From the NCBI RefSeq assembly GCF_016432865.1, contig NC_067400.1, forward strand, positions 555,024,001-555,088,000: 64,000 nt of DNA, in the 5' to 3' direction. Shown piece by piece: positions 7,371-52,240 of this stretch; the stretch's first letter is position 1; every line of letters starts with the position of its first letter. The position numbers and the translations under genes are program-made. Origin of the DNA: Antechinus flavipes (Eukaryota). The notes beneath the pieces were generated by a model that had not been told where the DNA came from, made no database searches, and was given only the letters and a program-made list of their open reading frames with translations.

Positions 7371-7859
7371 GTATAAAAATCAGCTCATTGGAGCATTTCA
7401 GTATGGTATATATCTTTATACTTTATGTGGAGTCAGAATATTTTAATGTAAATCCTAGTTATTCCATTTACTAAAAGTGATATTTGACAATTACTTTATT
7501 TCTCTGTTCCTCATTTGTTCATTTGTAAAAACAGAAAAATAATCTTTGTTCTGCCTACTTCATAGTATTATTCAGGTTCTTCAAATGCAGAACAAATTCC
7601 TTTCAAAGATATTCTTGCCAGGATTTATGCTTTATTCAATAGTAGACCTAGATAATAATCCTTTCCACTGTAGGAATCTACAAATCTATGAAAATCACAT
7701 GGAACCATGTATATGTAAGATCTTTATAATCATAAAATGATACATAAATTCAGTAATATTGGGATAAATTCTGATAGCAATCTCTTTATTCATTCCCCTT
7801 TAATTGTCCAAATCAATCAGTAGTTTCAGTATTATTTACTTGATACAAATAAGAACCAA

Positions 7860-8110
7860 TAGATGGCCCAGTAAATAGAGTACTCAGCCAGGAGTCAGAA
7901 AGACTTGAATTTAAAATATGGTTTCAGATCCAGCTATGTGACTCTGGACAAGGCACTTCTGTTTTTTTTTTTTTTTTTATTTTCCTCAAATGCAAATTGG
8001 ATATTATGATAGCACTTACCTTCCAAGGATACTGTAAGGATTATTTAAAATAATATTTCTAAAGCTCTTAGCCCAATGCCTAGCATACAGCGGGTATGAT
8101 ACAAAGGTTT
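7860..8110 (+). mobile_element. MIR-like CORE-SINE with internal poly-T
   Basis: GGAGTCAGAAAGACTTGAATTTAAAA...TGTGACTCTGGACAAG...TTTCCTCAAATGCAAA...GCACTTACCTTCC CORE pattern. Confidence 0.65.
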
Positions 8111-8183
8111 ATTGCTTTTTCTACCCTAACCCCTCGTCTACCCTACTCAGTATTATCATTCACCTTCCCAGTCCAAGCATCCA

Positions 8184-9134: not shown

Positions 9135-9776
9135 GGTATCAACAGCAGGGGATTTCTTTGCTTAGGAGACAGCTCCTGAAATGAAAAAAACATTCTCTTA
9201 TGGGATAGGTAGAAAGCTACAGTTAAGTCAGGGCAGAGGGGGAAGAGAGACAAGTTTTTTTTTTTTTTTTTTTTTTTTTAACCCTGATTTTACCTCTCAT
9301 TTCCTTGGGGATCTCAAATATGGTAACTAATTTTTTTTTTTTGGTTTTGGTTTGTTTGTCTGCAAAAATAAGAATACAAATAGAAAAGAGTAACCTTAAG
9401 AGTTAAATAATACCAGAATCCAGACATACAGTAAGTTGGAAGTATGTAATACTGAGGATATACTAACTCAAAACATCCTTCCCCTTTAAAAACACTCCCT
9501 AAAAACATACATATATTTTATACTCTTGAAAATTTCCTAAGCACTTAAACCCATATTATTATATAAACATATTCTATACATATATTAATATGGTTATTAA
9601 TTCAAATAATTCAATATATGTTCAATTCCAAGCATTTGCTATGTGTGAACATAAATACACAGTGATTCCTCTATAAATGTCATTACTAATTTATGGAAAC
9701 TGTCCAGTTTTCATATGGATAAGTCACACTACCATTACTGCAGAAATGTAAAGAACTATTCAGAGGTATCAAGAAT

Positions 9777-10255
9777 TGTAGAGAGCCAGAACTCTGGGGA
9801 AGTATATTTGAAACAAGGTGTTAACTCAATGAAATTGATGAGATGATTGTTCTCTAGTTCATATATATTCTTAGTACTTAGTATGGTGTTGTAATGGTTC
9901 TCTAAGTTCACATATTATCAGTATGTTGTAATCATGTGATTACAATAAGCTCTATTAGAGTTAACATGGATTGGAAGAGATATATTCTATCTTGGACTAT
10001 CCCCATGGTGGTTCTCCTGCCTCCTGCACTACTGGGGAGACTGGCAGACTGGCAGACTACTGGAAGTAACTGAAGATAGTCAGTCAGACTGAGTCAGACT
10101 ACTGTAAGAGAAGATGGAGCAGACTGGTTCAGACTGGGAGACTGAAGGAGACAATAAAGACTTTGAACTTTATTTCTGACTATTCTCCTGTTGATTATTT
10201 TGCTGAGACCAAGGCTGATCCCAAGATCCTTCAGAAAGCTTGTCTGGACATTACA
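9777..10255 (+). mobile_element. ERV solo LTR with 6-bp TSD
   Basis: TGTAGAGAGCC...GACATTACA; TSD AAGAAT at 9771-9776 and 10256-10261; AATAAA near 10153. The empty site AAGAATGATGAG is visible in module A (about 218-230). Confidence 0.92.
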
Positions 10256-18286: not shown

Positions 18287-18674
18287 TGTAGAGGGCTGAA
18301 ACTCCAAAAAGGTATGTTTGAATCAGGCAAGGGAGCACTTAAGGCTAATTACCTATTTGATGTGAGACAATGACTCTAGTAGCATATATTTGGATAAATG
18401 GCTCTTCTCATTGTTGATGCTTGCTGAATGTTTGGTGTTAAGATAATCAGAGGCAAGGATTGGGGATGGAGGGAGAGAGGCAAGAGTGCTTGGTGGCAAG
18501 ACAAGGAGGAGAGAGGCTGGTGACTCAGAACTCTAGAATCAAGGAGAGATCTTTGTCAAGCCATGTGGCAGTTTGCCTGCCTCCTTCACTTCTCTCACTA
18601 AAGACCAAGGACTTTGATTTGTCTTGACTCTGGCTGACCCTGAAGCCCTCCAAAGAACTAACCTGTGCTCTACA
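18287..18674 (+). mobile_element. ERV solo LTR inserted in an L2 3' end, 6-bp TSD
   Basis: TGTAGAGGGC...GCTCTACA; TSD CTTAAT at 18281-18286 and 18675-18680. The flanks rejoin as an L2 tail (CCCAGTGCCTGGTACATAACATGTGCTTAATAAC). Confidence 0.92.
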
Positions 18675-19718: not shown

Positions 19719-20093
19719 TATAGAGGGCCAAAACTCTGAAAAGATGTACTTGAATCTAGGTCAGCAAGGTACTTATAGTTAAGCATATACTTAGAACTTA
19801 GTATGATGAGGTAATGGTTCTATGGCTTGTGCTCAGTGTGCTCTAGTGATATAATCATACTGAAGTATTTAAGGGCTGGGAGAACTGGGAACTAATCTCT
19901 CTCTCTTAGCCACAGACACAAAGGACACTCTCAGCCACAGACACAAGAGAAGACGCCAGACTTCAGATTCCAGACTTGGGACTCCAACTTTGACTAGGCT
20001 TGTGGTGGCCCTCCTGCCTCCTTCACTCTTCCACTAAGACCAAGGACTAAGGCTGATTCTGAGGTCTTCCAAAGAGCTAGTCCAGACATTATA
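19719..20093 (+). mobile_element. ERV solo LTR, 5-bp TSD
   Basis: TATAGAGGGCC...GACATTATA (decayed TG...CA); TSD CTTTC at 19714-19718 and 20094-20098. Confidence 0.85.
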
Positions 20094-20292: not shown

Positions 20293-20617
20293 TGTAAAGG
20301 TCTGAAACTCTTGAGTTAATGGACTGAGGTCGGACAACCAAGCACTTAAGGCTAATTACTGATTGGACAATACTCTGTAAGCATATGCTTGGAAAATGGC
20401 CTTTCCCACTATTCTGTGCTGGCTCAATAATAGGTATATACAGAGAATTGTAGGAGGGAAGGGAATGGAGTAAGACTAACCAGAGTCACTTCTGGGCGGG
20501 AGATAAAGAGGAGAGGTCGTGGAGATTCTGCATCCATCCAATACTCCTACCTCTAAAGATCAAGAATAAAGACCAAGGACTTTTGCTTATCCTGACTCTG
20601 GCTGATTCTAAAGTATC
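20293..20617 (+). mobile_element. ERV LTR truncated at its 3' end
   Basis: TGTAAAGGTCTGAAAC...AATAAAGACCAAGGACTTTTGCTTATCCTGACTCTGGCTGATTCT. It stops roughly 30 bp before the family's ...TACA end and has no right TSD. Confidence 0.85.
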
Positions 20618-21375
20618 CAATCAGAGAATGGTTCTCAACCTCCTACCAAAGCAAAACCCTCTATTTTCAATTCTGACATTCTACTGTGGTGACTAGATGA
20701 TAGTGAAGTATGGAAAACTAAGGATGAGTAGTTTATGGAGGGTAATGGAGATGCAGTCAATATGAGCCAGCCACTATAAAATATTAAGGATGATACATGA
20801 AGTAGAGAGATGAATTCAAGGGATTTTATTATAGGCAAAGAAGATGGGTTGGTCATATACAAGAATGAGAACTCATTACCAGACAGTCTTGAGTGTCAAA
20901 CTATTACCCTCTCAATGTCAACAAAATGAGGAAGTTCTTCAATATACTGAGTGAATCTTCTGTACTAAACTTTTGGAAGAACATAGACAAGAGTCCCATA
21001 AAGTGAATAAGTATAAATGGATTGGGAAAAAAAAAGTTTAAAATCAATGAGATCACAAATTCAATATATATGTGAGTAGTGTCAGCTAGGCAGCATGGTG
21101 AGCCCCAGAATCAGGTACACTTAGTTTAAATTGCCTCCTCTAACAAATACTAATAAGAAATCCTCTGTAAGTCACTCAACTCCTTTTTTTCCCCTTAGGG
21201 TTTCACCTAGTAAATTACCAAATTAAATGTTTATTTTTTTTTTTTTAATTTTAGGAAGACATGTAATAAAACAAAAACTAAAACTTCACTCAGATGCTAC
21301 TACAATTTAAGCAGTTTCTTGTTTTGTTTACAATTAGATTGACAACTATCTATGTGTCTAGAACTATATATCTGC
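20618..21375. repeat. About 760-bp direct duplication of 54274-55080
   Basis: CAATCAGAGAATGGTTCT...CTATGTGTC(T/C)AGAA collinear match between the two loci. Confidence 0.9.
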
Positions 21376-22299: not shown

Positions 22300-23241
22300 A
22301 TTGTTCCTCCAAAGACACAACACTTCAGGGCTTCTTTGTTTTGAAGCAGACTAAGCACAGCTTGTCAAATCAATTTGGTTTTGAAATTATAGGTTCAGGA
22401 CAAGTGGGAGTAACAGGTAGCTGTAGGCCATTATGACTAAAACAATTCATGGGGAAGTAACATAGATGATGTATAAGTGAAACACTAATTATGAGCACAA
22501 AAATTATGGCAACAGCAACAATGTGAAAAAAAACAAACAAGTACTGAAGGCCTTTTGCTGCTCCTCGGGGGAGGTGATGTTCAGGATGGTGCAAAGGATC
22601 AGGATGAAGGAGAGGAGGTTAAAAAGCAAGTCCATACCAGAGTTGGAGAGGAGAAAATATAAGTCAATCAGACTTCTAAGCCAAGTCTCAGAGTGATAGC
22701 AATAGGGGGTGGAAAGTTCATGTTCTCTGTGGAAGGACAATTCTTTCAAGGTCAAGGCAATTGGAATTATGGAGACTATTTGCTTCATGAAGATCACCAA
22801 ACCAAAAAGCATTATGGTTGAATTAATGAGAAATGCTGCATGCCTTAATGCGTCACAAATGACCATGAAATGATCAAAGGCCATTGTTAAAAGCAGGGAG
22901 GACTCCAGAAAAGAGAAGAGATAGAGGAAGAACATCTGGATGATGCAGGCATTCAAACCGATTTCTTGCAAATTGAACCAGAGTTCACCCAGAACAGTGG
23001 GGAGGGTTGCAATTGTCAAGTCTATGTCAACAGTTGATAACATAGACACAAGGTAGTATATAGGTTTGTGGAGGCTTCGCTCAACAATTATCACAAAAAA
23101 GGACCATGCTATTCTCCAAGGGGTCAATAGCATAGAGACAAGAAAAAGATATGGAAAGACACACATGATTACCTTCTAGCCAAGGGAAAGTAGTGAAGAG
23201 GAAGATTAGGGATAAAAATGTGGATTATTGAGAACCAACAT
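22300..23241 (-). pseudogene. OR51T1: OR51T1-like pseudogene (multiple frameshifts, stops and an ECL2 deletion)
   Basis: ATG at 23241 in a CCTACCATG context with acceptor AG at 23260-23261. Diagnostic SLHKP.YY, SFH..HELS.PYCYH.E, QQKAFSTC and C-terminal KTKLI*QAV segments resemble human OR51T1 as recalled. The frame breaks near the N-terminus, in TM1, in TM6 and in TM7. Confidence 0.8.
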
Positions 23242-25733: not shown

Positions 25734-26678
25734 TCAGGAACTAGTTCTCCATAACACTCGGACAATTTGCCTTCGGATCTCTCTGGTCCTGATACTGTAG
25801 ACTATAGGATTGAGTACAGGAGGGAGCAGTAAGTAAACATTTGCCATGAATGTATGTACTATGGGTGACAAGTGTTTCCCAAAGAGATGTAGCAATGTCA
25901 TGGCAATAAGAGGTACATAGAAGAGTAGCACAGCACAGATGTGGGAGAAACAGGTGTTGAGTACTTTGAATCGCTCCTCTCTTGATGCAATACCCAGAAC
26001 TGCCTGGAGGATGAGGATGTAGGACAAGAGAAGAACCAAAGCATCCAATACAATAATGAAGATAACAGCCAGCAGACCATAGAGGCTATTGATGTGAGTG
26101 TCAGCACAAGCAAGCCTCATGGCATCCTGGTGGAGACAGTATGCATGGGAGAGAACATTAGAGTGGCAAAAAGGTAACCTTTTGATGAGAAAGGGAACAG
26201 GAAGTACAGCAACCACACTCCTTAATAAAATAGTTACTCCAATTTTGCTTATGACACCATGGGTAAGAATGATAGCATAGTGCAGAGGGAAACGGATGGC
26301 TACAAAACGGTCAAAGGCCATGGCTACCAGAACTCCTGACTCCACTCCTCCAAAGGTATGGATAAAAAACATCTGGGTGATGCAAGCATCAAAGGTCACT
26401 GAATATTGACCAAACCAGTGAACTTCGAGCATAGTTGGTAGTGAGGATAAGGAAAGGCTAAGGTCAGTTGCAGCCAGCATAGCCAAAAAATAATACATGG
26501 GCTCATGGAGGCTCTGTTCATGTTTGATAACTATGAGGATAGTAATATTTCCTAACAAAGTGATACTATAGAGGAAGAAGAGTGGCAGGGCTATCCAATA
26601 ATCCTTCTCAGGCATTCCTGGGATCCCAGTCAGAGTGAAAGTCTGATGATTGAATCTTGTGTGATTAAGAACTGACAT
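25734..26678 (-). CDS. Class I olfactory receptor, OR51H-subfamily-like (314 aa, intact)
   Basis: All OR51 motifs are present (LHEPMYYFL, MAFDRFVAI, SHAYCLHQD, PPVLNPIVY). The true start is taken as MSVLNHT at 26678 because the acceptor TTTTTCTCCAG (AG at 26698-26699) lies between it and the upstream ATG of the ORF track. Confidence 0.92.
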   Translation of the reverse strand: MSVLNHTRFNHQTFTLTGIPGMPEKDYWIALPLFFLYSITLLGNITILIVIKHEQSLHEPMYYFLAMLAATDLSLSLSSLPTMLEVHWFGQYSVTFDACITQMFFIHTFGGVESGVLVAMAFDRFVAIRFPLHYAIILTHGVISKIGVTILLRSVVAVLPVPFLIKRLPFCHSNVLSHAYCLHQDAMRLACADTHINSLYGLLAVIFIIVLDALVLLLSYILILQAVLGIASREERFKVLNTCFSHICAVLLFYVPLIAMTLLHLFGKHLSPIVHTFMANVYLLLPPVLNPIVYSIRTREIRRQIVRVLWRTSS

Positions 26679-27399
26679 GGTAGACTGAAGATATATTCTG
26701 GAGAAAAAGCACAAGGATAAAACAAATCCCAAATGCAATAATTATTAATAAAGGCATAATATACTAGGCATTAAAGGAGATAAAAGAATTAAATGAAACA
26801 TTGTTCTGCTCATAGAAGTGAGAGACTTGAAATGGAATAACATCCCAATAAAAATACCAAAAAAGCATGATTATTATTATATATACATAAGGGATTTATC
26901 CTTAAATATGCTGTTACCCAAGTAAAAAAATTGTTACCAGCCATGGGAATCAAGGAAGTGATGGAGGAAGTGACATTTAGATGTACTCTAAAGTAGAAGT
27001 GTCAAATGCACATATCTTAATATTTCCAAATATGTCTTGAGATAAATTAAAATAGTAAAAATAAAAAAAAAAGTATAATAAACACTGGTCATGTTAATTT
27101 GTGGTTTTCTAATATGTGGTTATCAGAATTTTTATTCAGGATTCTGTGACGCCCATTTCTATTTGAATTTGAAGTCATTCATTTTAAGGGATAAATATTT
27201 TAACATGTAAATAGAGAGAGGGAAGAAATTTCTAGAATATGAAAGAACTCCAAGTAAGTAAAGAGGTATAAGGATATGATACATGGTTCATAGGAGTAGG
27301 GATAATTTAGTTTGGCTTTAGTACAAAGGGAGTAACATGAAAAGTCAGATGGCACTACTGTGTTAAAGTCCTTAAATATTAGGCTGATAGATAAACAGC

Positions 27400-28010
27400 T
27401 AACCTGAGATCATAAAGTCTTGCTTTCAAATCCAGTCTCAGACAGTAGCTAAGCAACTATGGGCAACTCATTTAACCTCTGGTCTGCCTTATTTTCCTCA
27501 AATGTAAAATGAGAATAATGATGGCACCTGCCTGTTATGGGCCAGAACCCCGTACTTAAAACAAGGATTCTTACAAAGTGCTAACTCAGTAGAATTGATG
27601 AGAACACCATGGTCCTGTAAGGTGGAGTGAATGAATCTGTCTCTGATTCCCTTCCGAGTCTGTGTTTGGCTCTTCTGAGTCTCTCTCTGAGCTCTTCTGC
27701 GTCTGTCTCTGGCTCCACTCTGGCTGAGTTTGTTGCAGCTTTATATGATCTATTTTGAGTATAAACCAATTATTATAACACTAGGAAACCATTATTTGTT
27801 GTAAGATTAAATCAATCATACTGAATTATTAACTATTAATCACCATGCTAAACTAGATAACCATTGTGTCATCAATTCCACTGACCTAGCACCTTGTAAG
27901 AATCCTTGTTTCAAGTATAGAGTTCTGGCCCATAACACCTGCCTCCCAAGGTTGTTATGAGAATGAAATGAGATAACATTTGTAAATCACTTTACAAATA
28001 TTACAGAGTT
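27400..28010 (+). mobile_element. MIR-like CORE-SINE interrupted by the 27533-27937 element
   Basis: The flanks rejoin as ...GTAAAATGAGAATAATGATGGCACCTGCC|TCCCAAGGTTGTTATGAGAATGAAATGAGATAACATTTGTAAA. Confidence 0.8.
27533..27937. mobile_element. LTR-derived 405-bp element with 69-bp terminal inverted repeats and 6-bp TSD
   Basis: Starts TGTTATGGGCCAGAAC and ends GTTCTGGCCCATAACA; TSD CCTGCC at 27527-27532 and 27938-27943. Both arms resemble the 5' (U3) end of the LTR at 9777. Confidence 0.9.
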
Positions 28011-28017
28011 ATACAGG

Positions 28018-28190
28018 TACTAACTACTACTATTACTGCTATTGCTCCTACTCCAATTACTATTAGTACTACTACTACTTTTACTACTACTACTTCTATC
28101 ACTACTATCACTACTATTACTATTGCTACTACTAGTACTACAACTATCACCATTATCACTACTAGTACTACTACTACTACTATTACAACT
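28018..28190. repeat. Degenerate (ACT)n trinucleotide repeat
   Basis: CTACTACTACTATTACT... array; it explains the poly-V and poly-S ORFs 28001-28201 and 28020-28211. Confidence 0.9.
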
Positions 28191-29084
28191 TGAAAGTTCA
28201 TAGGAATTCACTTAAAATATTGGAATGGAAGAAAGATATGAAAATATGAATAAGAAATGTTATTGGAACATATGAATTAGGCATTAAGGTATCTTAGAAC
28301 AACTCATATACTTTCATTCAAATCCAATTTTACCTATACTATACTATCTTATTCTGTGTATCAAGGATATATGAAAGAGATAAGAAATATGAATAATAAG
28401 GGGATATAGTCTTAGTGTTAAAGAGGGCCTGTGCTTGTCTGATGGCAATGGCAAAAGAAAAAAGTTGACAAAGAGAAGGAAACTAAAGATGGAATTCAGA
28501 GCAGCTGATAAATGATTAGAACAAAAAAGCACAAATGTAACCATAGGAGGTTCTATCACTGTAGTGTACTAAACAAAAATAATGAAGTCAGAAGAAGGAG
28601 CATTTAAAGGGAAAGATAATGATCTTATTTGGAGGTATATTCAGTTAAAGATGGGTCATTCATGTGGAGATGTAATAGCTCTATTTCAAATTCAAAGGAG
28701 GTTAGAACAAGAGGAAGAAATTTGAGAGTAATATGCTTTTACTGTATTTTGTAGTTGAAGTTCTGGGAATAAACAAGATTTCCAAGAAGGATAGTAGAGA
28801 GAAGTAGGAAGAAAACCAAAGACAGATAATAAACAACCACATGAATGGATCACAAAAAGTGCCAAGAAAATAAGACAAAAATTGTATGTGATTAGAAATA
28901 GGGAAGAACTTAATATATCTACAAGCATGTGGAAGGGATTCAACATCAAAGGAGAGATCAAAAATATTGAGGAACTTCAGTGAACATGTTCTAAAAGAGG
29001 TGAGGGAATAAAATTTAAAGCAGAGAAGTAAAGGCTGTGGTTCTTCAAGATTTTTCTTGTTTTGAACAGTGATGAAGATTAGGG

Positions 29085-29250: not shown

Positions 29251-31904
29251 ATAGTTAGGAAAAGAGCAGAGATGATGCTTAAGTTTGAGAATGAAAAATG
29301 AGCAATAAGGGAATTCACTTCATGTTGGAAAAGTTAGATCATCTGCTTTTAAGAAAATGAGATATAGCTAGTGCAAGGAGAAAGGAAAAAAGGATCCGGG
29401 ATAGAAAATTTGGGAAACAAAACATAAACACAACCCAAACCTTGTCCTGAGAAATCTACTTGGAATCAATCTCAGCTCTTCTACTTACCAATTATCTGAT
29501 TTTGAACAAACCCACTTAGTTTTTCTGAACATAGTTTCATAAATTCAATATTAATTTAGAAAAACCATTTCCTTTCTCTTGTTTTTCCTATGTAAAATGT
29601 AAATTTGAGTTGATATGCTCTCTAAAGTCTCTGTAGGCTTTCAGATTTTTGAAAAGGGATCAGAATGAAATTGTCCTTGATTCCCCAACTTCTTCACAGC
29701 ATTTTCTACCTGAGCTAACATAATATTGTGCCAAGACATAGTCCTTCCTCTATGGCACATACAGGGCCAGAAGAGTAGGATTGCTTTTTTACTCCCTTGG
29801 ATATTTCTTTCTGAATGCCTTGATATCTTCACTAGCACTATCAGATATTCTCTGCTGGATGCTTACTTTCCCTAGATCCATGATGTTTTTTAGAATACAG
29901 GTTTTATCTCCCTCCACCCTCTTCCTGCCAAGCCCTTTTAAGAAGAGTATAAAATATAAAAACATGGAAACCTGACTTTCCCATTCTGGTCATTCCAAAC
30001 TGATATATCAATGTCAGTAAGACTGACATATATAGCTCTATCCTGATGAAAATGAAAAATGAGATCCAGAGAAGAGTCATCCAGAATAGAGTGAGCCATT
30101 TCCATTTCCATTGCTTTGGGTTATGTCTCAGATCACAAACACACTTTTAGGGATTGGAAGAAATCTCAGTCAGTGTTTTCAAACATGAAGAATAGACTGA
30201 ACTTGAAATGCTATTTTATTGCACATAATCCTTCTACATAAATGACTTCCCTTACTCACTGTGTGATTGACTATCAAATTTAGTTAAAATATATGCAATA
30301 TATAGCACATAGATTAAAATACACAGACATAGAAAAATACTTTTCAATTATTACATTCAAAATGCTTTCAAGAAAAAGATAGAGTAGTCACAGAAGAGGA
30401 GATGCCTGGTCATAGCTTCAATTATACCTTTCTGGGAAGGAGATGCATTCAGATTAAGCAGCAAAATTAAGGATACTATCAAAGGGAGCAGCTTAGAACT
30501 AAAATGGTTTTGTTTATCTGGTCAGTGTAAAGATCTGAAATACCACTATTTCAGGAAAATTCACTAATGATGTGAGCAAGTCTTAATCATATGCTTTCCT
30601 CCCTGTGCTGTTAGACTATTTATGCCCAAAGTTATAAGGATAACAGGTAATAGTAATCAACTCTTATCTTTTTTTTTTTTTAAATACTTGGGTTTGCCAG
30701 TTTCCTCTGATAGAAATGGTGACTTTATCACAAAGTTATCTAACAAGATAACTTCTTACTTGTGGCCCATCTGGCTTTTTCAAAGCCTAAACATTAGATG
30801 GGCATCTTAGTAGACTCATTTCTTGAGGTCAAAGCATCACCTATATTCTCTTCCCAGTCCATATTCTGCAGCACCCAAAAAGTGTCATTGCCTTTTAATC
30901 AGCATTCTAATGGAGGGTCCCTGCATTGCACAAATGGAACTCCAAACTAGAAAGGATTTTAGAGATCATCCAAGCCATCCTCTTCATTTTGCAGTGAGAA
31001 AACTGAGACTAGAAGCAATAAAGTAGTAAGGTGGAAGCACTTACCTCTGTAGTCAGATATGCTCTGTATAAAGCTTACCTTTGACACTTACTCCCTCTGT
31101 GAAAAAAATCCAAGTTAGTTAGCCTCTTTGAGCTTTAGGTTCTTCATCTGTAAACTGAAAGAGTTGAAGTAATAACTCCTCAGATCACCTCCAGCTCTAT
31201 GTCTATGAGCTTGTGTTTAGTGAGTTTCCCAAATCATAGAGTTAATAAAAACTGAATGGAAAATTCATGGCCAGCTTTCATCCTGGCAATAGAAGAATTC
31301 TACAGTGGGGTTTTCACAAGGCACAGACTTGTGGCATCATCAGTCGATTTTCCTTGATGATACTGGTATTTCAGATCTTTACATTGATTACTTTGGCAGC
31401 TCCAGATAGACATAACCATTTTAGTTCTAAGCTGCTCCCTTTAAAAAAAGAAAATTTACCTTTAATTTTGTTTCTTAGGACAATGAGAGATGTCAAATGT
31501 AAGTATCTAACAAAATTTCCATTCCAAAAAAAAAAAGTGGCTCAAATCAGACTATGTAATTAGAAAACATTAATAGAATACAACATAGATAATTCAAATT
31601 TATGATTTTCTAAGTCAATATGTCAAGATGCATTTCTATTTGATTCTGCTGCCATTGATTTAGATCTCAGATCCTAATAAGCCCCCTTCCATATTTTGCA
31701 GGATTGCTCAAATAGCTCAGCGCTCTATTTCATAATATTAGAATTAAAGGGAACTATTTTCTATGATCAGAAGAGAGCTTCTGGGACTTCCTCTCTTTCT
31801 CCAACAATCTGACTCCATATCTGTGTCGAGTAAAAATGTCTTCTGGTATATTCAAGAACGACAAACTCTGAGTACCTGTGTGTTTCTTACTAGAATAGAG
31901 AAGA

Positions 31905-36583: not shown

Positions 36584-37423
36584 GTACAAAAACTTTTTAA
36601 TTTAATATAATTAGAATTATCCATTTTGTATTCAATAATGTGCTCCAATTCTGTTTGTCCACAAATTCCTGCCTTCTCCATAGATCTGAGAAGCAAACTA
36701 TCCTTAACGTTTAATTCACATTATTCAAATTTTGTCCATCATTTTCTTAAATCTAAACAATAATTAAAACAATGTATCAAACTGTGGATTCTATTTCAAT
36801 GATATAAGTGCTCAGACTTAAATTAAAAAAAATTTTTCTTTAGTGTCAATTTGAGGTAGCTCCATCATACCTTTAAAATGAAGGTGAAATACATAGGCAG
36901 AAAATGGAAATATGGAGCTGAGTTGTTCAAGGGACTTTTGTGTAGCCTATCACCATTATGAGCATTCTAAAATTATGGTAAGCCTGGTGGAAGGGACTGG
37001 AAAATTATACGTGATCAATTAATACTATTGTAGTACCCAGAATACCTGTTATATCAAAACCTTGCTCTGTTTCACCTTGTACCCCCTAGGCTTTACCATT
37101 GGTTTGGCCTCTGTAGTGTCTTCTTTTTTAATCCTAGTTGCCAATTCATATTTGCTTGGACCTATGAGAGATATCAATATATCTGGACTACCTTTCCATA
37201 TCTATTCACTGTCATTATCCTATTTCTCATATTAAAACATTAGATTTTAAGAACTCTGTCCTCCAGTAATTTGATGATTTCTTTCTTTGTTCTTCTCCTC
37301 CCTCCAAGACATTTCTATTCAGGATTCTGTATACTTAATAGTTTAGCAGCAAGAGAGCTTAAGGGATTTAGGGACAAACTTCAGCTTGCTCTCCCTACTG
37401 TAAAGTTCCTAAGATATCCCCTC

Positions 37424-37636
37424 ACTGCCATTAGTAAGATGGGTGGCAACATCCATGAGTCCATGTACTACTTCCTCGTTATTTAGGCCCTGGCTGATAT
37501 GGGTCTCTACATGTATACCCTGCCCACTCTATTTGGAATTTTCTGGTTCCATGCTCTGGAAATTCCTTTTGATGTTTGCAACACTCAGATACTCTTTATA
37601 CATGCATGTATTATCATGGAATTTGGAGAGTTGGTG
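37424..37636 (+). pseudogene. Internal OR51-family fragment (end of TM1 to TM3), copy B
   Basis: TAISKMGGNIHESMYYFLVI*ALADMGLYMYTLPTLFGIFWFHALEIPFDVCNTQILFIHACIIMEFGELV; TAG at 37484-37486, the same position as in copy A. Confidence 0.85.
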
Positions 37637-39357
37637 TAAGTCTTCTGAGACATTACCTGTCATCTGCTCATTAGCCTGAACTTAGATTATCCATTTAAGG
37701 GTTAGAACAGCCTAGGCTTTGCTCAAAATAAGAATTAGCATCTCTGACCTGAGGGCTTCAAGGGAGACTTAGAAACAGAAATATCCAGATTTTATTCAGT
37801 AAAGAAAACAATCTGTCTGATATGTCATATTATCTGACATTCTCAAGCTCTTCCTTTTATCTGAATAATTCCCTCCACACATCCCTCAAATCTAATTTAA
37901 GCAATTGGTTTTAGAGGCTAGTGTAGTAAGGCACTCATTGGCTTTTTGTCTGTCTGGTTTGAGTTTACTTTAGTATGGGTAGACCTGGTTGAGAATCTCA
38001 CAAAAACTATGAAAAGGATATAACTAATGTTAGTAGAGGGAATGACCATTCTGAGGAAATCAGGGCTTTGAAATTATTTTGAAGCATATGAAATTCCTTT
38101 AATGATTTGGTATGTATATGAATCTGTCTTCCCATCTCCACCTCTCCCACATATGCCAGAAGGAGAAATTTCTGTAAAGAACAGCCCATTTTGTTTGATT
38201 GGGAACTAGGGAATTAACAGGGCCTTCTAGACACTTAGGGTACCCCATGGGATTTAAAATGCTAACATAAGAGCTCAGAATCATCACTTTGGTGAAGGAA
38301 GAGGTGGAATTTGTATCAGGAAAAGAAAGGCAGGTAAGAATAACAAACAAAAAAAAAAAGCACAATAGAAACTAATGAATGAATTACATGTGATATAGAA
38401 AGGGGATGCTAAATAATCACCTAGGAGTGTGAAATAAATTCAGTAAAAGAAGCATCAAAGAGATCAGGAGTTTTGGGAGCAGAGAACTGAGGTGGGTGAG
38501 AATATACATCTTGATGTTTTTATTTTCATTTTCAATCACAAATATACATATAAATACTATAGGTTACAAGGAATGAACTAAGAAGAAGAAGGGAGAAGGA
38601 ACTAGATATCAAGAATAAGAAAAGATTTATAATGGGGGGGGGGGTAAAAGTAAATATTAATCTTTCTTTAAGCAAAGCTGAGCTCCTGGGGGCAAGGGAG
38701 CAGGAACTGACTACTTAGGACATATTGTTTTAAAAAAACAGATTTCATCCCATGATAATACAGTGAGAATTAGACATGAAAGCAATTGGATGTAGTGAGC
38801 ATAATATTCTTCTTTGGTCACTGGATAACTACAAGATAACGAACAATCGAACTGACATACAGATGGCTTTCATTATTCTCTTCCTCTCAGTATCTTAAGA
38901 AATAAAACAAAAATAAAAATACAAAACTATACTTTTATTTAGGTCAACAAACTCAACTCAAAGTACTTTAAAAATAAAAGGCTGACCATTCAGTCAAATA
39001 GTGGTTATAAAAAATTGCACTGATGGGGATAATGGCTCCTACTAAGCAGCTATTAAACAGCCTGTTAGTTTGGGAACAGAAGTGTTCTCAAGGGTACATT
39101 TTACTATCCTGCTTAAATTCTGAAGTGCTTAGGTCTAGCCAGTTCAGGCTTAATAACAATGAAATGCTTGTAAACAGATGAGACTGAATTAAATTAAAGA
39201 GGGAACAAGGATTGAAACCTTTATGAGGACAGATAAGACGCTAATGAAACAGTTATTTCTCTCCAACATGGATTCTTTCTTCCATTCACCCACAATCGGT
39301 CCTTTTCCCAAAGATTACTGCTTTCTATAATTTACTAAGAAAATACTTAAGGATTGT

Positions 39358-39515
39358 NNNNNNNNNNNNNNNNNNNNNNNNNNNNNNNNNNNNNNNNNNN
39401 NNNNNNNNNNNNNNNNNNNNNNNNNNNNNNNNNNNNNNNNNNNNNNNNNNNNNNNNNNNNNNNNNNNNNNNNNNNNNNNNNNNNNNNNNNNNNNNNNNNN
39501 NNNNNNNNNNNNNNN
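39358..39515. other. Assembly gap (158 N)
   Basis: Run of N. Confidence 1.
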
Positions 39516-42500
39516 TTCTAAGGAACGTGGAAATCATATAGACAGAATATTGAGACATGTCCCTGGAACAGCCAGATCCAGAATGCCATGATTTCTCAGA
39601 AAACAAGATAAAGGATAAAATGTAGAGATTAGAGTGGAACATCTCACTTCTTTAGAACCCCAAGGTTGACAGAGCATCATCTTTATGGTGTTTTGGTTAA
39701 TTAAGTGAATGAAGTATTATTTTCATTTTACAGAAAAGTGTCAGACAGAAATGGCAAGGACTTAGGCAAGATCTCATAGATAACCTAGGTCAGAGGCAGG
39801 ATTCAAAGTCATATCTTCTTATTTTGTGTCTAGAGTTCTTTCCAGCAATCTGTCCTGCTAAGCTAGTGATTTAGAAACAAAATCACAACTAGAATGTATT
39901 GAACTAGACTTTTTCCAAGGAGTTGATTCACAGGGATAGATAGTCAAACTTCTAACTTCAAGGCTTTCTGCTTGCAGGTTCATCATACTAATGAAGCAAA
40001 ACCATACTCAGAGAGCACCATAGGCAGACCCCACTTATACATTCATTTTTTACATGTATGTATGTATGCATCTATCTCTGTCTCTTTAAAGAGGGATAGA
40101 ATGGATCACTGCACACAACTGAATTTGTATGAAGTTCAATAACTCCTAGCCATGCCTAGATTTATACATTCATAGATAGAATCAGAAGGAGGTGCGTTTA
40201 TTAGGAAGTGCAATAGATACAGAATTGTGCATGGAATCAGGAACACTCCCCTCCCTGAGTTCAAACATGGCCTTACATACTTAAAACAGCTGTGACCCTG
40301 GGCAAGTTACTTATCCCTATTTGCCTCTGTTTCCTCATCTGTAAAAAGAGCTCAAGAAGAAAATGGCAAGTTACTCTGTCATCTTTACCTGGAATACCCC
40401 AAATAAGATCACAAAGAGTCAGAAAAAAACTTGAAACTAAAAAAACAAGTATAATCAATATGTGCTCAATAGAATTCCAGATGGGATGCAACGTTCTTTT
40501 TTTCTCTAGGCCTCAGAAACCCCATGTTTCCTGGCCAAATACTGAGTATCCTTTCAAGGGGATGTGGCCATTCATTCCATAGTCAGAGATTAGAGAAAAA
40601 ATTTAAAGCATCAGTGTGGGGGATTTCTATGACACTTAGTATTACAATTCACTTCACTACCATATAGCATATCCAGAAGTTATAAACAGAGTCCTGAGTG
40701 GGTGGATAGCACCAAAAGGAAGAAACAAAAGAAAGAACAGTTTGTACCATCAAAGAAGAAGGAGATGCATCATTGTTTTGCTGAAGGTTATCTTGGTTAT
40801 GTAGCTTAAGATCCCATTAATAGACAGAAGATGAAAAAATAGAAATGTAGCAATTGTCCACAGACTGATAGAGCAGAAGAACTTGAAAAAAAAAACATAT
40901 AACATATAAATAAACTCCAAGAGATTCATCTTTTCCCATCAATTGATTGCTGAGCAACTAAATAACAAAGAAAGTTTGATGAGATCTCTTTGCCATGAGA
41001 GAAGAAATTAAAGGAAAGAAGCAGAGTGTGAGAACAAGAGAGAAAGATGGGGGGAGTGTCCTGTTGAGGTCAAGTGGGAGTATTTGTGCATAGAACTACA
41101 TAATCCCTTTGTGGAAAAAGCAAAAGAATGTGGGTACCTGTGTTTGAATGTGAATGAGAGAGAAAACTAGAGACAGAAAGACTGACACAGAGAAAAGAGG
41201 AAACAAACAAGAGAGAGACAGAGGCAGACAAAATATATGTTTGTCTTCCATGCATGACAATTTCATTTTATTCACATACAAGTATTTGTATCTATGTATT
41301 GTTGATAAAGAACACAGCTGTATGTATGAGAATATTTATCTAGGAGCATATGTAGTTGAAGCATCTGTCTGGCACAGTGGCTTTAGATCCCAGGCCATAG
41401 GTAAGAAAACATCACAAATCTGGCCTCAGATACTTAACTAGATATGTGACTCCAGGAAAGTCACTTAATCCTGTTTGCCTCAGTTCCTCATTGTAAAATT
41501 ACTTGGAAAAGAAAATGGCCAATCATTCCAGTTTCTTTGCCAAGAAAACCCCAAATAGGGTCAGGAAGAATCAGACATGACTGAACAGAATATGTCGTTG
41601 TCCATGAATTGTAGAGGAGAGTCTGAGAGAGATCTTATAGTCATAGTGAGTATGAAAGTTTGTACATTTCTGTGGAATAGTAAGGTGTATTTACTTATAT
41701 TTGTTTTCTTAGTGCTTAGCCCAGCAATTGACATAGAACAAGAAAATAATTATTTAAAATGTTTTTCTTTTTCATTCATGCATTCATTTGTTTATTTGTG
41801 CCTAAGATGAATTTATCTGGATATTTCTGAGTTTGTGTATAAGAAACTCCAAATATGTTCAAGTTAATGACATAAATCCATAAATGTGTCATTTCTCAAT
41901 TTGGTCTTAGTGTCTGGGTTCCTTTCTGTACCAGGTGTACTCTTATTCCTCCCTCTAGGATCTAGGATCAGTTCAAATGCTACTTCCTCCATATAGTTTT
42001 CTTTAATTATCATCACAAAAAGTGATCTAGTCTTCTCCCAGGTCTTTGCACATGCTTCCACTTGACAATGTATCTTAGGCATTTGACTTTATGTCTCATC
42101 TCTACAATGAGAATGGAAACTCATGGGTCAAAAGCCATTACAAAAACCATTACATTCAACTGTGTCTCATCACAATGTCATTAGTAGGAATAGAGCAATG
42201 AGTAACTACACTGAAGTAACAATAGACTGTGTTCCTATAGCAATGGACAGTTAATAAGAAATTTTTGTCAGCAATCTTGTGTGTCAAATAATTCAATTGA
42301 TAAGAATTTATGGAGCAGCTACTGAGCACCAGGACCTGTGCAACCTATAAATACAATTATTTTATTTTAATTTATGAAATCATACAAACATTTAGATCAT
42401 ATAGTATAATAATAAAAAAGATGATTGCCCATGAAGCAAAAGAGTTTTTACTGTCAAGAAGCTTAGTTCTAAGATGGTAGAGAGGTAGCATAGTATGTGT

Positions 42501-42716
42501 ACATATAAATGAATATAAAATATGTACCACATAACCAGTATAGAGGCACATATTTGATATTACAAGAAGTTTGTTAATAATAAAACAGGTATTATACAGT
42601 AGAAGGGTAGAGAAAAGTAGGATATGGACACCAGGAGGATGGGGATGACATGAATGGGTTTAGCGAAGAAGAGCGTGGTTTCTGTGGAAAGGAGTTTTGG
42701 CCACAGCAACATTTTC

Positions 42717-43504
42717 TTTTCTTTTTAAAATTTTTTTAATTTTCAGTAATTATTTTATTTTTCCAAATACATGTAAAGATTGTTTTCAATATTTGTTTTC
42801 GTAAGACTTTGTGTTCCAAATTTTTCTCCCTCCCTCCCTTACCTTTCCTCTTCTACATAAATGTTAGTTAGAAAGTATTATTTTCTTTTTTAGGTTTCAA
42901 CATTAATATTTATTTATTTATTTATTATAGCCTTTTATTTACAAGTTATATGTATAGGTAATTTTACAGCATTGACAATTGCCAAACCTTTTGTTCCAAT
43001 TTTTCCCCTCCTTCTCCCCATCCCCTCCCCCCATGATAGGTTGACTAATACATGTTAAATATGTTAAAAGTATAAATTAAATATAATATAAGTATACATG
43101 TCCAAACAGTTATTTTGCTGTACAAAAAGAATTCGACTTTGAAATAATGTACTATTAGCCTGTGAAGGAAATCAAAAATGCAGGCAAACAAAAATATAGG
43201 GATTGGGAATTCTATATAATGGTTCAGTCATCTCCCACAGTTCTTTCACTGGGTGTAGTTGGTTCAATTCATTACTACTCCATTGGAACTGATTTGGTTC
43301 ATCTCATTTCTGGAGATGGCCACATCCATCAGAATCGATCATCATATAGTTTTGTTGTTGAAGTATATAATGATCTCCTGGTCCTCTCATTTCACTCAGC
43401 ATCAGTTCATGTAAGTCTCTCCAGGCCTTTCTGAAATCATTCTGCTGGTCATTTCTTACATAACAATAATATTCCATAATATTCGTATACCACAATTTAT
43501 TTAG
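42717..43504 (-). mobile_element. Composite L1 insertion (young L1 3' end, unique spacer, older L1 3' end) with 15-bp TSD
   Basis: TSD CACAGCAACATTTTC (42702-42716) and CATGGCAACATTTTC (43505-43519). The empty site is present in modules A (about 1031-1045) and C (about 11030-11050). Confidence 0.85.
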
Positions 43505-44999
43505 CATGGCAACATTTTCCAAGTGGAACCATATAGTATTACATTGTCAAGTCCTAAAAAAGATGTAAAGATAATTTTTTTTCTAATGAAGTACATTTTA
43601 TTGATATGCTTTGCTTTTAATGTCTAATTTGTTTCATGTATTTTCATCCCAGAATATTATGCCATATCAAAAAATATTTCAAAGAAAATAGAAACATTAA
43701 TCAATAAAATGGTTGAATACATGCAACAAATATGAAAATATATGTCTCTATGTCTACAAAGGAAATAAATGAAATGTCTCTTTATATCTTTATTTCATTT
43801 GTAATTTGTTAACAGACTTTCAACTTTCATGGTAGTTATTTACATTGCTGTGATGATTGTGCATATAGTTTTCTTGCTCTTGATTACAATATTATGATGA
43901 ATGTCAGTCACAGATATATTTTGGGTATGTCCAAATGTCAGACTTCTGGCAGCTTTTCCTGCCTTATATTTATTGCAAATGTGGTAGATTACTAGGATTA
44001 AACTTGCAATACAAGTACTTCATCCAGGTAAGTTTTGCCCAGGATACACTTAAATATGGAATAGATTCGGTCCCCTAGATAACTCAGAGAAGTCTTTTTC
44101 TCCCTTCTAGTATTTGTAATCAGCATGGTGTGAGATAAGTTGCAGGATCTCTTTGCATTTCTTGGTCATAGAATAAAGATGAGCTAACAGAATCCTGGAG
44201 TAATATAAGTAATACTATCTCCAGTTTTATTGGTGGGGAAGTTGAAACTAGAGAAGAGAAGCTAATTGTTATGGTAGCAAAGTTAGTCAGAGTTAGCATA
44301 TCTCATCATTTTTAACTCTGATTAGTAGTTCTTTCCATTTCTACAAAGCTAATTATAGTGTGACCTATTTATCTGAAAACAGGACAGTTTCTACATATGA
44401 GTAATGATTTTACAAATGTATAACGGTGTGCTTATGTTCACAAGTACAAATGTCTGGAAATAATCCTTTTAATAAATTACCATATGTAAATACATATGCA
44501 GAATAAGTTTGTCCATTATTATCTGTTATGTGCTTAGGAAATTTTCATGAGTATTAAGATAGTTGTAGAGACAGTTGTGTTGTAAAGAGTATATTTCAAG
44601 GGGAATGATAATTTGAGGGACTATTGTCCTAGTATGACATGCTTCAGAATGACTAGGAATTATCCATTTTGCTTTTGCTTTTCTCTGACAATATTTAAAC
44701 TGCAGAAATGAACACAGAAGCAATAGTGTTCCTCAGACTAGGGTCTCTAAATCCTTGTGTCTGGATCCCAAGTGCTACTTAACTTTTTTTCTTTGTTTTA
44801 TGAAATAATACAAGTATTTCCATAACAGCACAATCAAAAAGATGATTGCAAATGAAATACCAAATTTACTATGCACAACATGCTATCTTTTTCAAATATA
44901 CAACAGAATTATCACACAGATTATATAATAACAGTAAATTCCTTTTTTCTTCTTCTCTCCCCTTCTCCTGCTCTAGAGATAGCCATCTTCATATATAGA

Positions 45000-45459: not shown

Positions 45460-46600
45460 TAATATGTATAGACATTTATAAATATTTTTACATGTATAAT
45501 ACAATTATTCTATACACATTTCATTTAATCAGTTCTTTCTCTGAATGTAGACAGTATCTTTCTTCCTATATCCTTTATAGTAAGTTTGGATATTTATGAG
45601 TCAAAAGAACTCATTGCCTCACAGTTGTTCTTATAACAATATTATTGTTACTGTAGACAATGGCTATTCTTCATTGTTTCATACAAGCATTTCCATGTTT
45701 TTTCTAAAATCATTTAACTTTTATAGCACAGTGTAATTTCAGCACAGTCACATACCACTACTTGGCAAACTAATGGGCATTTCTTCAATTTCCAATTCTT
45801 TGCATCAGAGAAAGAGAGTTACTACCCTAATCATCTTTGGAAATGAACCAAGTAGCATTATTTCTGGGTCAAAGGTTATAGGTAGTTTAATAACTCTGGT
45901 CACAATTCTAGATTAGTTTTAGGTCACAATTTTAGCAAAAATGAATTAATATCCCAATTTGTTCACATCCCTTCCAACATTTGTCTCTCCTTTTATCATT
46001 TTAGTCAATCTGGTAGGTATACAATATATCTCAAATTTGTTTTAATTTTTATTTCTTTAATCAATAATGATTTAGAGCATTTTTTCATGTGGTGATAAAT
46101 TGTTTTGATTTCCTCATACTTGTTCATATCTTTTGACCATTTATGAATTAGGGAATGACATATAATTATAGATTTGACAGAGTTCTTTATATAAATTAGA
46201 TTTATTTAAGAAACTATTCATGAATCCCACTCAATTGTCTGTTTTTCTTCAAGTCTTGGCTACATTCATTTGGTTTTCACAAAATCTTTTTAATATAATC
46301 AAATTTGTTCATTTTTATACCTGACTTACCTGTCTTCCTTATGCATCTCTATAAGTCTAATAAAGAATAGGTCCCATATTCTAATTTTCGTTTAATATCT
46401 CTATTTATATCTGGATCATATGAGCATTTTTACTTCATCTTGGTAAATAATATAAACGATTTGTCTATATTCAGTTTCTGCTTTACTACTTTCCAATTGT
46501 CCCAAAAGTTTTTTACCAAGTAATGAATTCTTGATATTAACTCTTAGGGATACTTGCTTTTCTATTTGAAACCTTATTTTTTCAGACAAACCAAAGCTAT
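45460..46600 (-). mobile_element. Old L1 fragments
   Basis: Reverse-complement L1 3' UTR and ORF2 pieces (AATGGGCATTTCTTCAATTTCCAATTCTTTGC, TTGTTCATATCTTTTGACCATTTA). Confidence 0.65.
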
Positions 46601-46796
46601 TAAAGAGAGTTATCATAAATGATATCTTCAAAGAAATAAGAAGTAAAATCAGGGCAAAAAAAAAAAAAAAAAAACACCCTTGTCTCTCTTCCCCTTCTGC
46701 GCTGATCAAATTGTACTTTTCTATCTAACTAATAATAGAATGTTCTTTCATTTCAGGAGCTGTCTCCTAAGCAAAATATCCCGTGCTGGTGATACC

Positions 46797-47747: not shown

Positions 47748-47799
47748 TAGATATTTAGGCTGAGAAGAAATGAAGTGAAAATAACCAAGTAGGAAGGGT

Positions 47800-51369: not shown

Positions 51370-52240
51370 ATGCTACATCTGGTCATTACTCTGCATTTAA
51401 ATTATCCATGTAAGGTTTAGAACAGCTAAGGTTTTGATCAAAATAAGAACTGGCACCTCTGACCTGAGGTGTGTGAGGGAAACTTAGGAAATAAAAATAT
51501 ATCTGCTTCAATCATAAAGAAAATAATCTATGTGCTATGTCATAGATTATTATAAAGGGCTGAAACTTTGAATAGGTGCACTTGAATCAGACAAGGGAGC
51601 ATTTAAGGCTAATTACCGATTGGCCAATGACTCTATTAGCAGATGTTTGGAATCGCTCCTTTCTCAGTTAATGCTGGCTCAATGTTTGGGGTTAAGAAAA
51701 TTGTAAGTAAAGATTAGGGATTGGAGTGACAGAAGCGAGAGAACTTCACTTTTCGCCAGGTCGAGGAGGAAAAAGGTTGGTGGTGAGCCTGTGACATTTT
51801 GTTTGTCTCCTTCACTTCTCCCCCGAAAGACCAAGGACTTTTACTTATCCTGACTCTGGCTGTTATTGAGGCCTCCAGGGAACTAGCCTGGACTTTACAG
51901 ATTATTTTCTTTACTGATTAAATTTTCTGAATTTCTGAAAATTCTTAAACTCTTCCTTTTATCTGATTATTCTTCAAATCTAATCCCAACACCTGAGCTA
52001 TCCTACAATTAATTGAAGCAACACTTGCTTCTTAGCTTTAGAGGCTTCTGCAAGGCACTCATTGGCTCTTTGGCTCTCTGATTTCTAGTTAATTTCAGTA
52101 TAGGTAGATGAGATGGATTGAGACTCTCACAGAAAATATGAAATGGATGTTACTAATATTAGTGGAGGGATTGCCAACCTTGGAGAAATCAGGGAACTTT
52201 CATATTATTCAAATGATTTACTCATATGAGACTGTCTAGT
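51370..52240. repeat. Module D: diverged partial copy of the distal part of modules A and B, interrupted by an LTR
   Basis: Direct match to about 37660-38130 and inverted match to about 5560-6030 (ATTATCCAT.TAAGG.TTAGAACAG, CTCTGACCTGAGG, AAGGCACTCATTGGCT). Confidence 0.8.
51551..51899 (+). mobile_element. ERV solo LTR with 6-bp TSD
   Basis: TATAAAGGGC...GGACTTTACA; TSD GATTAT at 51545-51550 and 51900-51905. Confidence 0.9.

What the first reader, a model, noticed from the sequence alone, without database searches (positions are those of the whole stretch)
27533..27937. LTR-derived element with two U3 ends in inverted orientation and a clean 6-bp integrase-type TSD
Seen: this 405-bp insertion splits a MIR exactly, has a CCTGCC TSD, and carries 69-bp terminal inverted repeats (27533-27601 and 27869-27937; 61/69 identical, first 16 bp perfect). 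Both arms match the 5' end of the ordinary solo LTR at 9777 (CCAGAAC...TGAAACAAGG...TAACTCA.TG.AATTGATGA). Neither arm matches that family's 3' end (...GACATTACA). Read on the minus strand the element is U3 with a TATA-like CATATAAAG (27739-27747) and the start of R, with no poly-A signal or U5. It then switches strand at the 8-bp palindrome ACCATGGT (27606-27613). Known: solo LTRs have only short terminal inverted repeats and one U3 plus one U5 end, and 4-6 bp TSDs with TG...CA ends are the mark of retroviral integrase. Inference: this is either a fold-back or template-switch cDNA with U3-U3 ends that integrase accepted, or one copy of a non-autonomous MITE-like family derived from an ERV LTR.
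Basis: partly seen in the sequence, partly recalled or inferred. Interest (0 to 1): 0.8.

Follow-up and report, generated by a model that had tools for sequence, protein, structure and literature searches.

The report
Retroviral LTR with mirror-image ends
A 405-base leftover of an old retrovirus-like element in a mammalian genome has lost its normal tail and carries a flipped copy of its own head instead, so it looks like a small DNA transposon; it is probably a one-off copying error, but it would be a real surprise if many copies share this shape.

Summary
The 405-bp insert at 27533-27937 has TG...CA ends and 69-bp inverted termini (61/69 identical). Its 6-bp duplication CCTGCC is real: 4 of 4 other SINE copies show a 6-nt flank overlap. 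Both arms are the 5' (U3) end of an LTR group that has four ordinary, complete solo LTRs in this window.

Three corrections:
- The inverted match runs on across a 3-nt gap to 27613, so ACCATGGT lies in an overlap (microhomology) zone and is not a fold-back centre.
- The missing poly-A signal is not diagnostic: 3 of 5 ordinary LTRs here also lack one.
- Only about 40-105 nt of the 3' end is lost.

Best reading: a solo LTR whose U5 end was replaced by an inverted copy of its own first 71-81 nt through a template switch (about 0.85).

Copy number and orthologues could not be checked because no animal genomes or Dfam were available. A one-off would be a curiosity; a family would be notable. Interest 0.42.

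The parts
27390..27532 (+). 5' part of the host SINE (MIR/CORE-type; name recalled)
   Evidence: 13 non-self hits in the window
27527..27532 (+). left copy of the 6-bp target-site duplication CCTGCC
   Evidence: 6-nt overlap in 4 of 4 other SINE copies
27533..27603 (+). left arm: inverted copy of the first about 71 nt of the LTR (U3 start, TG terminus), standing where the U5 end should be
   Evidence: 61/69 to the right arm; follows LTR-A up to 27603 and then departs
27600..27613 (.). junction zone: inverted microhomology/overlap between the end of the body and U3 positions about 68-78; contains the palindrome ACCATGGT (27606-27613)
   Evidence: 9 of 10 match to the right arm after a 3-nt gap, chance about 6e-4 over 11 registers; 13 of 14 match to a motif in LTR-A, which alone is not significant (186/2000 shuffles)
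27614..27859 (-). LTR body (rest of U3, TATA-like box, R, probably the start of U5), read on the minus strand
   Evidence: element 200-337 vs LTR-A 0/500 shuffles and vs LTR-B 3/500; element 82-200 vs A 8/500 and vs B 4/500; all in the sense orientation
27651..27715 (-). 22-bp unit x3 tandem repeat in the R-like region
   Evidence: 82% matches
27739..27747 (-). TATA-like box CATATAAAG
   Evidence: seen in sequence; function not tested
27860..27937 (-). right arm: the LTR's own U3 start, continuous with the body
   Evidence: keeps matching LTR-A past the arm, to about position 87; element 1-81 vs LTR-A 0/500 shuffles
27938..27943 (+). right copy of the target-site duplication
27938..28020 (+). 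3' part of the host SINE
   Evidence: 4 non-self hits, each in register with a left-flank hit
9777..10255 (+). LTR-A, ordinary solo LTR used for comparison; 6-bp duplication AAGAAT
   Evidence: single copy of the site in the paralogous repeat at 218-223
19719..20093 (+). LTR-B, ordinary solo LTR of the same group; 5-bp exact duplication
18287..18674 (+). LTR-C, more distant ordinary solo LTR; 6-bp duplication, 7/7 terminal inverted bases
51551..51899 (+). LTR-D, more distant ordinary solo LTR; 6-bp duplication

Best explanation
The element is a solo LTR of an endogenous retrovirus-like family. Its last roughly 40-105 nt (the U5 end) were replaced by an inverted copy of its own first 71-81 nt. 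SHOWN: the anatomy, the real 6-bp duplication, LTR ancestry of both arms and the body, and an overlap zone at the junction. INFERRED: a DNA 3' end being synthesised late in the LTR annealed, through a short inverted microhomology, to the U3 start of the plus strand. It copied that strand backwards and ran off its 5' end. That places the new end exactly at the LTR tip without needing a second switch. The cDNA then had two identical U3-type integrase attachment ends and was joined concertedly, giving the 6-bp duplication. Later LTR-LTR recombination removed the internal genes and left this 405-bp solo LTR. The arms were identical at that moment and have since drifted apart. I put about 0.85 on 'U5 replaced by inverted U3 through a template switch' and 0.40 on this one-off, before-integration timing.
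For: The second end lies exactly at the LTR tip, flush against the duplication. The arms share features that LTR-A lacks: the same first 16 nt, an 8-nt gap and a 12-nt internal duplication; the 8-nt gap is also seen against LTR-B. So one arm came from the other or from a sister copy. Both arms have changed: at the 8 differing positions LTR-A sides with the right arm at 6 and with the left at 2, as expected from decay of two once-identical arms. The junction shows inverted microhomology. LTR-A and LTR-B share a motif of this type (0/2000 shuffles), lying 81-100 nt from the 3' end in B, C and D. Ordinary relatives give 6-bp duplications in 3 of 4 cases, the length listed for alpha-, beta- and deltaretroviral integrases (PMC3790719, passages). 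In that paper a single U5-end oligonucleotide gave concerted two-end joining with a correct duplication in 26 of 26 concerted clones, so two identical ends are acceptable in vitro. An intact 6-bp pair has probability 0.48 at the arms' divergence, so it fits an old one-off.
Against: Nothing in this one locus separates before-integration from after-integration timing. The element-to-motif match at the junction is not significant alone (93/2000, 186/2000 and 133/2000 shuffles), and in LTR-A the motif lies 240 nt from the end, not in the collinear place. Four weak hints lean to a replicating master instead: first 16 nt perfect (p=0.11), 3 CpGs kept (p=0.14) and clustered mismatches (p=0.16), and the fact that a scan is more likely to hit a multi-copy family than a single event. 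I found no in vivo report of a U3-U3 provirus in my searches. Uncoordinated joining usually spoils the duplication (PMC2857682, passages).
Confidence: 0.4

Rival explanations
1. Amplified subfamily with symmetric LTRs. The inverted U3 copy became the U5 of a master provirus, next to its primer-binding site. Every daughter then has U3-R-inverted U3 LTRs, and their solo LTRs look like MITEs. The arms diverged in the master lineage, not at this site.
For: Terminal 16 nt perfect while the rest of the arm carries 8 changes (p=0.11). CpG o/e is 0.20 against 0.084 for the window (p=0.14). The mismatches cluster (p=0.16). The element is a distinct subfamily, only distantly related to LTR-A to LTR-D. 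A scan is more likely to land on a multi-copy family.
Against: Each hint is non-significant and was noticed after the fact. There is no second copy in 64 kb, which carries little weight. No such family turned up in 10 literature searches or in the searched supplements of two marsupial papers. U5 normally carries signals for priming and polyadenylation (established knowledge, recalled).
Confidence: 0.27
2. Template switch on the chromosome after a normal integration. During replication or repair, the polymerase left the template at the internal microhomology, copied the U3 start in reverse, and returned at the LTR's natural short terminal inverted repeat. The flanks and the duplication were untouched. 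This is type 3-2-1-4 of the four-point model if the LTR was on the minus strand, or 3-1-2-4 if it was on the plus strand.
For: Ordinary LTRs here have 5, 5, 7 and 6 of 7 inverted terminal bases. The element's first 7 nt match the reverse complement of LTR-A's end at 6 of 7 (B 5, C 4, D 5). The replaced (about 40-105 nt) and inserted (71-81 nt) lengths are of the same order. Types 3-2-1-4 and 3-1-2-4, with their mirror types, make up 31% and 23% of human-chimp events (PMC5453318, passages).
Against: It needs two switches and a jump of about 250-330 nt. In great apes the copied piece has median 12 and maximum 128 nt (PMC7954356, passages), although that search looked only within 100 nt, so longer jumps could not have been found.
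Confidence: 0.22
3. Two separate insertions of the same subfamily in opposite orientation at the same site, followed by a microhomology deletion of everything between them.
For: The arms differ at 8 of 69 positions plus a 3-nt gap. A deletion at microhomology would give the same junction.
Against: The second insertion would have to hit the same 6 bases exactly, since both ends are flush with CCTGCC and the flanks overlap by exactly 6 nt in 4 of 4 SINE copies.
Confidence: 0.04
4. A non-autonomous cut-and-paste element (MITE of a Ginger-like or other DDE transposase) whose inverted repeats were taken from an LTR.
For: The TIR length (69-81 nt) and TGTNR terminus fall within the Ginger description (40-270 bp, TGTNR; PMC2836005, passages and Discussion).
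Against: The duplication is 6 bp and not CCGG/CCGT. Ginger1 and Ginger2 give 4 bp, and TDD-4/5 give 5 bp. Six bp matches 3 of 4 ordinary LTRs nearby. The whole insert is LTR sequence, and no transposase ORF was recognised among the window's 14 long ORFs (read by eye).
Confidence: 0.04
5. Assembly or library fold-back artefact.
For: Fold-back chimeras make inverted repeats (established knowledge).
Against: The arms differ at 12% of sites with changes on both sides, and the flanks join as one SINE with a 6-nt duplication. The only N run is 11 kb away (39358-39515).
Confidence: 0.01

Closest known systems
Solo LTRs of class II (betaretrovirus-like) ERVs, e.g. the marsupial MEBrv clades of PMC11334065 (LTR lengths of 373-469 nt listed for the beta-like clades; passages)
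   Same: TG...CA ends, 6-bp duplication, length 405, U3-TATA-R layout, sequence relatives with ordinary ends in the same window
   Different: The U5 end is replaced by an inverted U3 start, giving 69-81 nt inverted termini instead of 5-7 nt. The link to any named clade was not shown: no motif hit in the one supplementary file searched.
Short template-switch mutations, four-point model (PMC5453318, PMC7954356)
   Same: A new inverted repeat made by copying a nearby stretch in reverse, replacing a stretch of similar length
   Different: The copied piece (71-81 nt) and the jump (about 250 nt) are far above the median, and the end point coincides with an integrase attachment site.
Ginger1/Ginger2 DNA transposons and MITEs (PMC2836005)
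   Same: TGTNR termini and TIRs of tens of bases. The paper proposes that Ginger1 TIRs came from LTRs in opposite orientation.
   Different: 6-bp rather than 4- or 5-bp duplication, no transposase, wholly LTR-derived, no evidence of mobility; here one LTR supplies both arms.
Aberrant proviruses with one defective end (PMC2857682 and references there; RSV work known only from its reference list)
   Same: A provirus whose normal U5 end is missing
   Different: Those have abnormal duplications or deletions; this one has a perfect duplication and a second intact CA end.

Membership tests
ERV solo LTR | TG...CA termini flush with a 4-6 bp target-site duplication | tested here: met
ERV solo LTR | homology to LTRs across U3 and R in one orientation | tested here: met
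   arm and body match LTR-A and LTR-B on the sense strand; C, D and E link through B and do not match the element significantly, apart from weak hits
ERV solo LTR | one U3 end and one U5 end | tested here: not met
   the conserved 3' end of A and B (0/2000 shuffles between them) is absent from 26500-29000; so it is a rearranged derivative, not an ordinary solo LTR
ERV solo LTR | the same LTR found flanking gag-pol with PBS and PPT | not testable with these tools
   no proviral internal region recognised in the window; no animal genome collection
class II (ERVK/beta-like) ERV | 6-bp duplication | tested here: met
   element and 3 of 4 complete relatives; 6 bp is also given for alpha- and deltaretroviruses, so it is not specific
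class II (ERVK/beta-like) ERV | pol phylogeny | not testable with these tools
   no pol linked to this LTR is available
MITE / non-autonomous TIR element | short, non-coding, TIRs plus duplication | tested here: met
MITE / non-autonomous TIR element | many dispersed copies of the same structure with different duplications | not testable with these tools
   1 copy in 64 kb; the prokaryotic genome scan gave 21 hits, none aligning over more than 27 nt
MITE / non-autonomous TIR element | TIRs shared with an autonomous transposase-coding partner | tested here: inconclusive
   the TIRs match LTR U3 starts; no partner seen in the window
Ginger1/Ginger2 | TGTNR termini and TIRs of 40-270 bp | tested here: met
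   TGTTA and 69-81 nt
Ginger1/Ginger2 | 4-bp duplication (CCGG/CCGT for Ginger1; 5 bp for TDD-4/5) | tested here: not met
   6-bp CCTGCC
Four-point template-switch product | ancestral allele explains the locus with two switches | not testable with these tools
   needs an orthologous unswitched allele; no paralogue of this site in the window

The most novel reading that the evidence does not exclude
This is one copy of an amplified ERV subfamily whose LTR is U3-R-inverted U3. Such an element would replicate with two identical U3-type integrase ends and no ordinary U5, and its genomic RNA could pair end to end over 70-80 nt. Its solo LTRs would be natural LTR-to-TIR intermediates, the step proposed but not observed for the origin of Ginger-type DNA transposons.
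Probability: 0.28. Interest if true: 0.75.

Novelty: new variant of a known kind. Interest (0 to 1): 0.42.

Why it matters
As a one-off, it is a clean fossil of a rare reverse-transcription or repair error. It shows how a single template switch turns an LTR into something any annotation pipeline would call a MITE. If the switch preceded integration, it is also in vivo evidence that an integrase joined two U3-type ends with full fidelity. As a family, it would show that U5 can be swapped for an inverted U3 in a replicating mammalian ERV. That would give a concrete route from LTRs to terminal inverted repeats, which PMC2836005 (Discussion) calls unclear. One genome-wide search of the junction decides between these.

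Tried and rejected
- Scan of the prokaryotic genome collection for stray host DNA carrying the arm: 21 loci, 0 of 21 aligning over more than 27 nt, all taken as chance.
- Rfam at E<=1: 2 weak hits, far below the gathering scores, rejected.
- Bacterial promoter scan: irrelevant to a mammalian LTR and at chance level.
- Literature search by short sequence motifs: 2 listings, both unrelated by title.
- Motif searches in supplements: 0 hits in 1 file of PMC11334065 and 0 hits in 4 files of PMC4408412 (one further file could not be searched and might hold LTR sequences).
- Search for Ty1 substrates with two U3 ends: 0 papers, so that precedent is recalled only and is not used as evidence.
- The coelacanth paper that surfaced twice (PMC4255032, passages) treats MITEs and solo LTRs as separate elements; not a precedent.
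- A general excess of inverted head-to-tail similarity in ordinary LTRs: not found (A 133/1000, B 138/1000 shuffles).
- Placing the junction on LTR-B by the short segment alone: ambiguous between about 45 and about 90 nt from the 3' end, hence the 40-105 nt range.
- Fold-back centred on ACCATGGT: rejected, because that would give arms with no spacer.
- An ADAR- or APOBEC-type editing signature in the arm differences: considered and dropped, since 8 changes are too few.
- Unchecked: copy number, orthologues, Dfam/Repbase, the viral and metagenome collections, and the host species.

Full report
Setting. The window is A+T-rich (GC 27-39%) with CpG o/e 0.084. It holds several seven-transmembrane ORFs and L1 ORF2 fragments (the names 'OR51/52 olfactory receptor' and 'L1' are recalled from the translations, not tested), plus dispersed SINEs and LTRs. 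It is a mammalian genome.

The observation. The insert is 27533-27937, begins TG, ends CA and is flanked by CCTGCC on both sides. The arms 27533-27601 and 27869-27937 agree at 61 of 69 positions, and the first 16 are perfect. It is one of only 2 inverted pairs within 1.5 kb of each other in the window. It folds at z = -12.2, against -0.6 for the LTR at 9777. The duplication is genuine. The left flank has 13 non-self hits and the right flank 4. In all 4 copies hit by both flanks, the two flanks overlap by exactly 6 nt.

Relatives in the window. There are three more with both ends located: B 19719-20093, C 18287-18674 and D 51551-51899. There are also two partial ones: E from about 20293, and F on the minus strand near 58082-57956. 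Exact duplications are 6, 5, 6 and 6 bp for A to D. Their tips have 5, 5, 7 and 6 of 7 inverted bases, and only 24-28 of the first 69. So long inverted termini are not a property of the group.

Read on the minus strand, the element matches A and B throughout in the sense orientation. Positions 1-81 vs A: 0/500 shuffles. Positions 82-200 vs A 8/500 and vs B 4/500. Positions 200-337 vs A 0/500 and vs B 3/500. Against C, D and E, which link through B, it has at most weak hits. The conserved 3' end of A and B is absent from 26500-29000. AATAAA/ATTAAA occurs in 2 of 5 ordinary LTRs (A, E), so its absence from the element is uninformative. Projecting the body onto A and B, and using a shared late motif that lies 81-100 nt from the end in B, C and D, puts the lost 3' part at roughly 40-105 nt.

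The junction. The left arm follows LTR-A to 27603 and then departs, while the right arm keeps following it to about position 87. After a 3-nt gap, the next 10 bases of the left side match the right arm at 9 of 10 (chance about 6e-4). Either the copied piece is 81 nt with a small insertion, or it is 71 nt and the last bases are body sequence that already resembled U3 in reverse. The second reading is favoured by a 13-of-14 match of the junction to a motif in LTR-A. That match is not significant alone (186/2000) and is not collinear in A. On either reading the palindrome ACCATGGT lies in the overlap and is not a hairpin centre, because the arms are about 250 nt apart.

Origin and age of the arms. 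The arms share their first 16 nt, an 8-nt gap and a 12-nt internal duplication relative to LTR-A. At the 8 differences, A sides with the right arm 6 times and with the left twice, so both arms have changed, which rules out a library fold-back. Divergence is 11.6% (95% interval 5-22%; 12.6% corrected), about 6% per arm. At a recalled mammalian rate near 2e-9 per site per year, that is some tens of millions of years if the arms were identical at insertion. An intact 6-bp pair has probability 0.48 at that divergence.

Mechanism. All serious readings share one step: a template switch replaced the U5 end with an inverted copy of the U3 start (about 0.85). Three timings give the same sequence.

(a) In the cDNA (0.40). 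A nascent end anneals to the U3 start of the plus strand and runs off its 5' end, so the new end is exact without a second switch. Integrase joins two identical ends, and LTR-LTR recombination later leaves the solo form. A single U5-end substrate gave concerted joining with a correct duplication in 26 of 26 concerted clones of a gammaretroviral integrase, and the same paper lists 6 bp for alpha-, beta- and deltaretroviruses (PMC3790719, passages). The steps inside the cDNA are inference from the standard reverse-transcription scheme.

(b) On the chromosome (0.22). Two switches are needed, with the return guided by the natural terminal inverted bases; the element's first 7 nt match A's reversed end at 6 of 7. 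The event types fit common classes (31% and 23%; PMC5453318, passages). The size is in the far tail (median 12, maximum 128 nt; PMC7954356, passages), although that study searched only 100 nt around each cluster.

(c) In a master provirus that then amplified (0.27). Three weak hints point this way (p = 0.11, 0.14 and 0.16), and a scan is likelier to meet a family than a single event. Two insertions at the same six bases (0.04), a cut-and-paste MITE (0.04) and an artefact (0.01) are unlikely.

Comparison with what is known. It works like an ERV solo LTR and fails one defining feature, the U5 end, so it is a rearranged derivative. It looks like a MITE and like Ginger elements in its termini and TIR length, but fails the Ginger duplication rule (PMC2836005, passages and the Discussion section). 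That Discussion proposes that Ginger1 TIRs came from two LTRs in opposite orientation and calls the chain of events unclear.

Literature coverage. Ten searches, read as listings, showed no natural ERV LTR with long inverted termini. Two marsupial papers were read in passages (PMC11334065; PMC4408412). Those passages describe no such element, and the supplements that could be searched lack the motifs (one file not searchable). PMC2857682 and PMC4255032 were read in passages. The library lacks most subscription and older virology papers and I had no Dfam or Repbase, so absence from print is not established.

Verdict. A real and well-formed oddity, and a new variant of a known kind. It is most likely a single fossil error (interest about 0.3), with a fair chance of being one copy of an undescribed symmetric-LTR family (interest about 0.75). 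Overall 0.42.

Noticed in passing
window 19719-20093, 18287-18674, 51551-51899, about 20293-20620, 58082-57956 (-): Five more LTRs or LTR pieces of the same broad group, so at least 7 in 64 kb counting LTR-A and the element. B, C and E sit within 2.4 kb of each other on the same strand.
   Followed up: partly
window 19719-20093: LTR-B has TA rather than TG/CA at both tips and an exact duplication of 5 bp, where its relatives have 6.
   Followed up: partly
window 9996-10034: In LTR-A, a motif that lies 81-100 nt from the 3' end in B, C and D sits 240 nt from the end, suggesting an internal duplication or recombination in LTR-A.
   Followed up: no
window 27938-27946: The right flank CCTGCCTCC is identical to a 9-mer in the late part of LTR-A, LTR-B and LTR-C. 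Probably a coincidence between SINE and LTR, but it could offer homology in a post-integration route.
   Followed up: partly
window 30481-30583 and 31325-31442: A second inverted pair (76% over 119 columns) with no other match in the window; not identified.
   Followed up: no
window 8184-9161, 22504-23175, 25734-26741, 46647-47747 and others: Cluster of olfactory-receptor-like ORFs, some intact and some broken (class I, OR51/52-like by recall). 7377-9406 and 46537-48544 are an inverted paralogous pair at 78%.
   Followed up: no
window 66-6876 and 36831-44461: A roughly 7-kb inverted pair of long repeats at 84-89% identity (L1-like by the ORF2 fragments nearby); the only N run (39358-39515) lies inside the second copy.
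   Followed up: no
window 28018-28190: (TAC)n-type simple repeat directly after the host SINE's 3' end.
   Followed up: no
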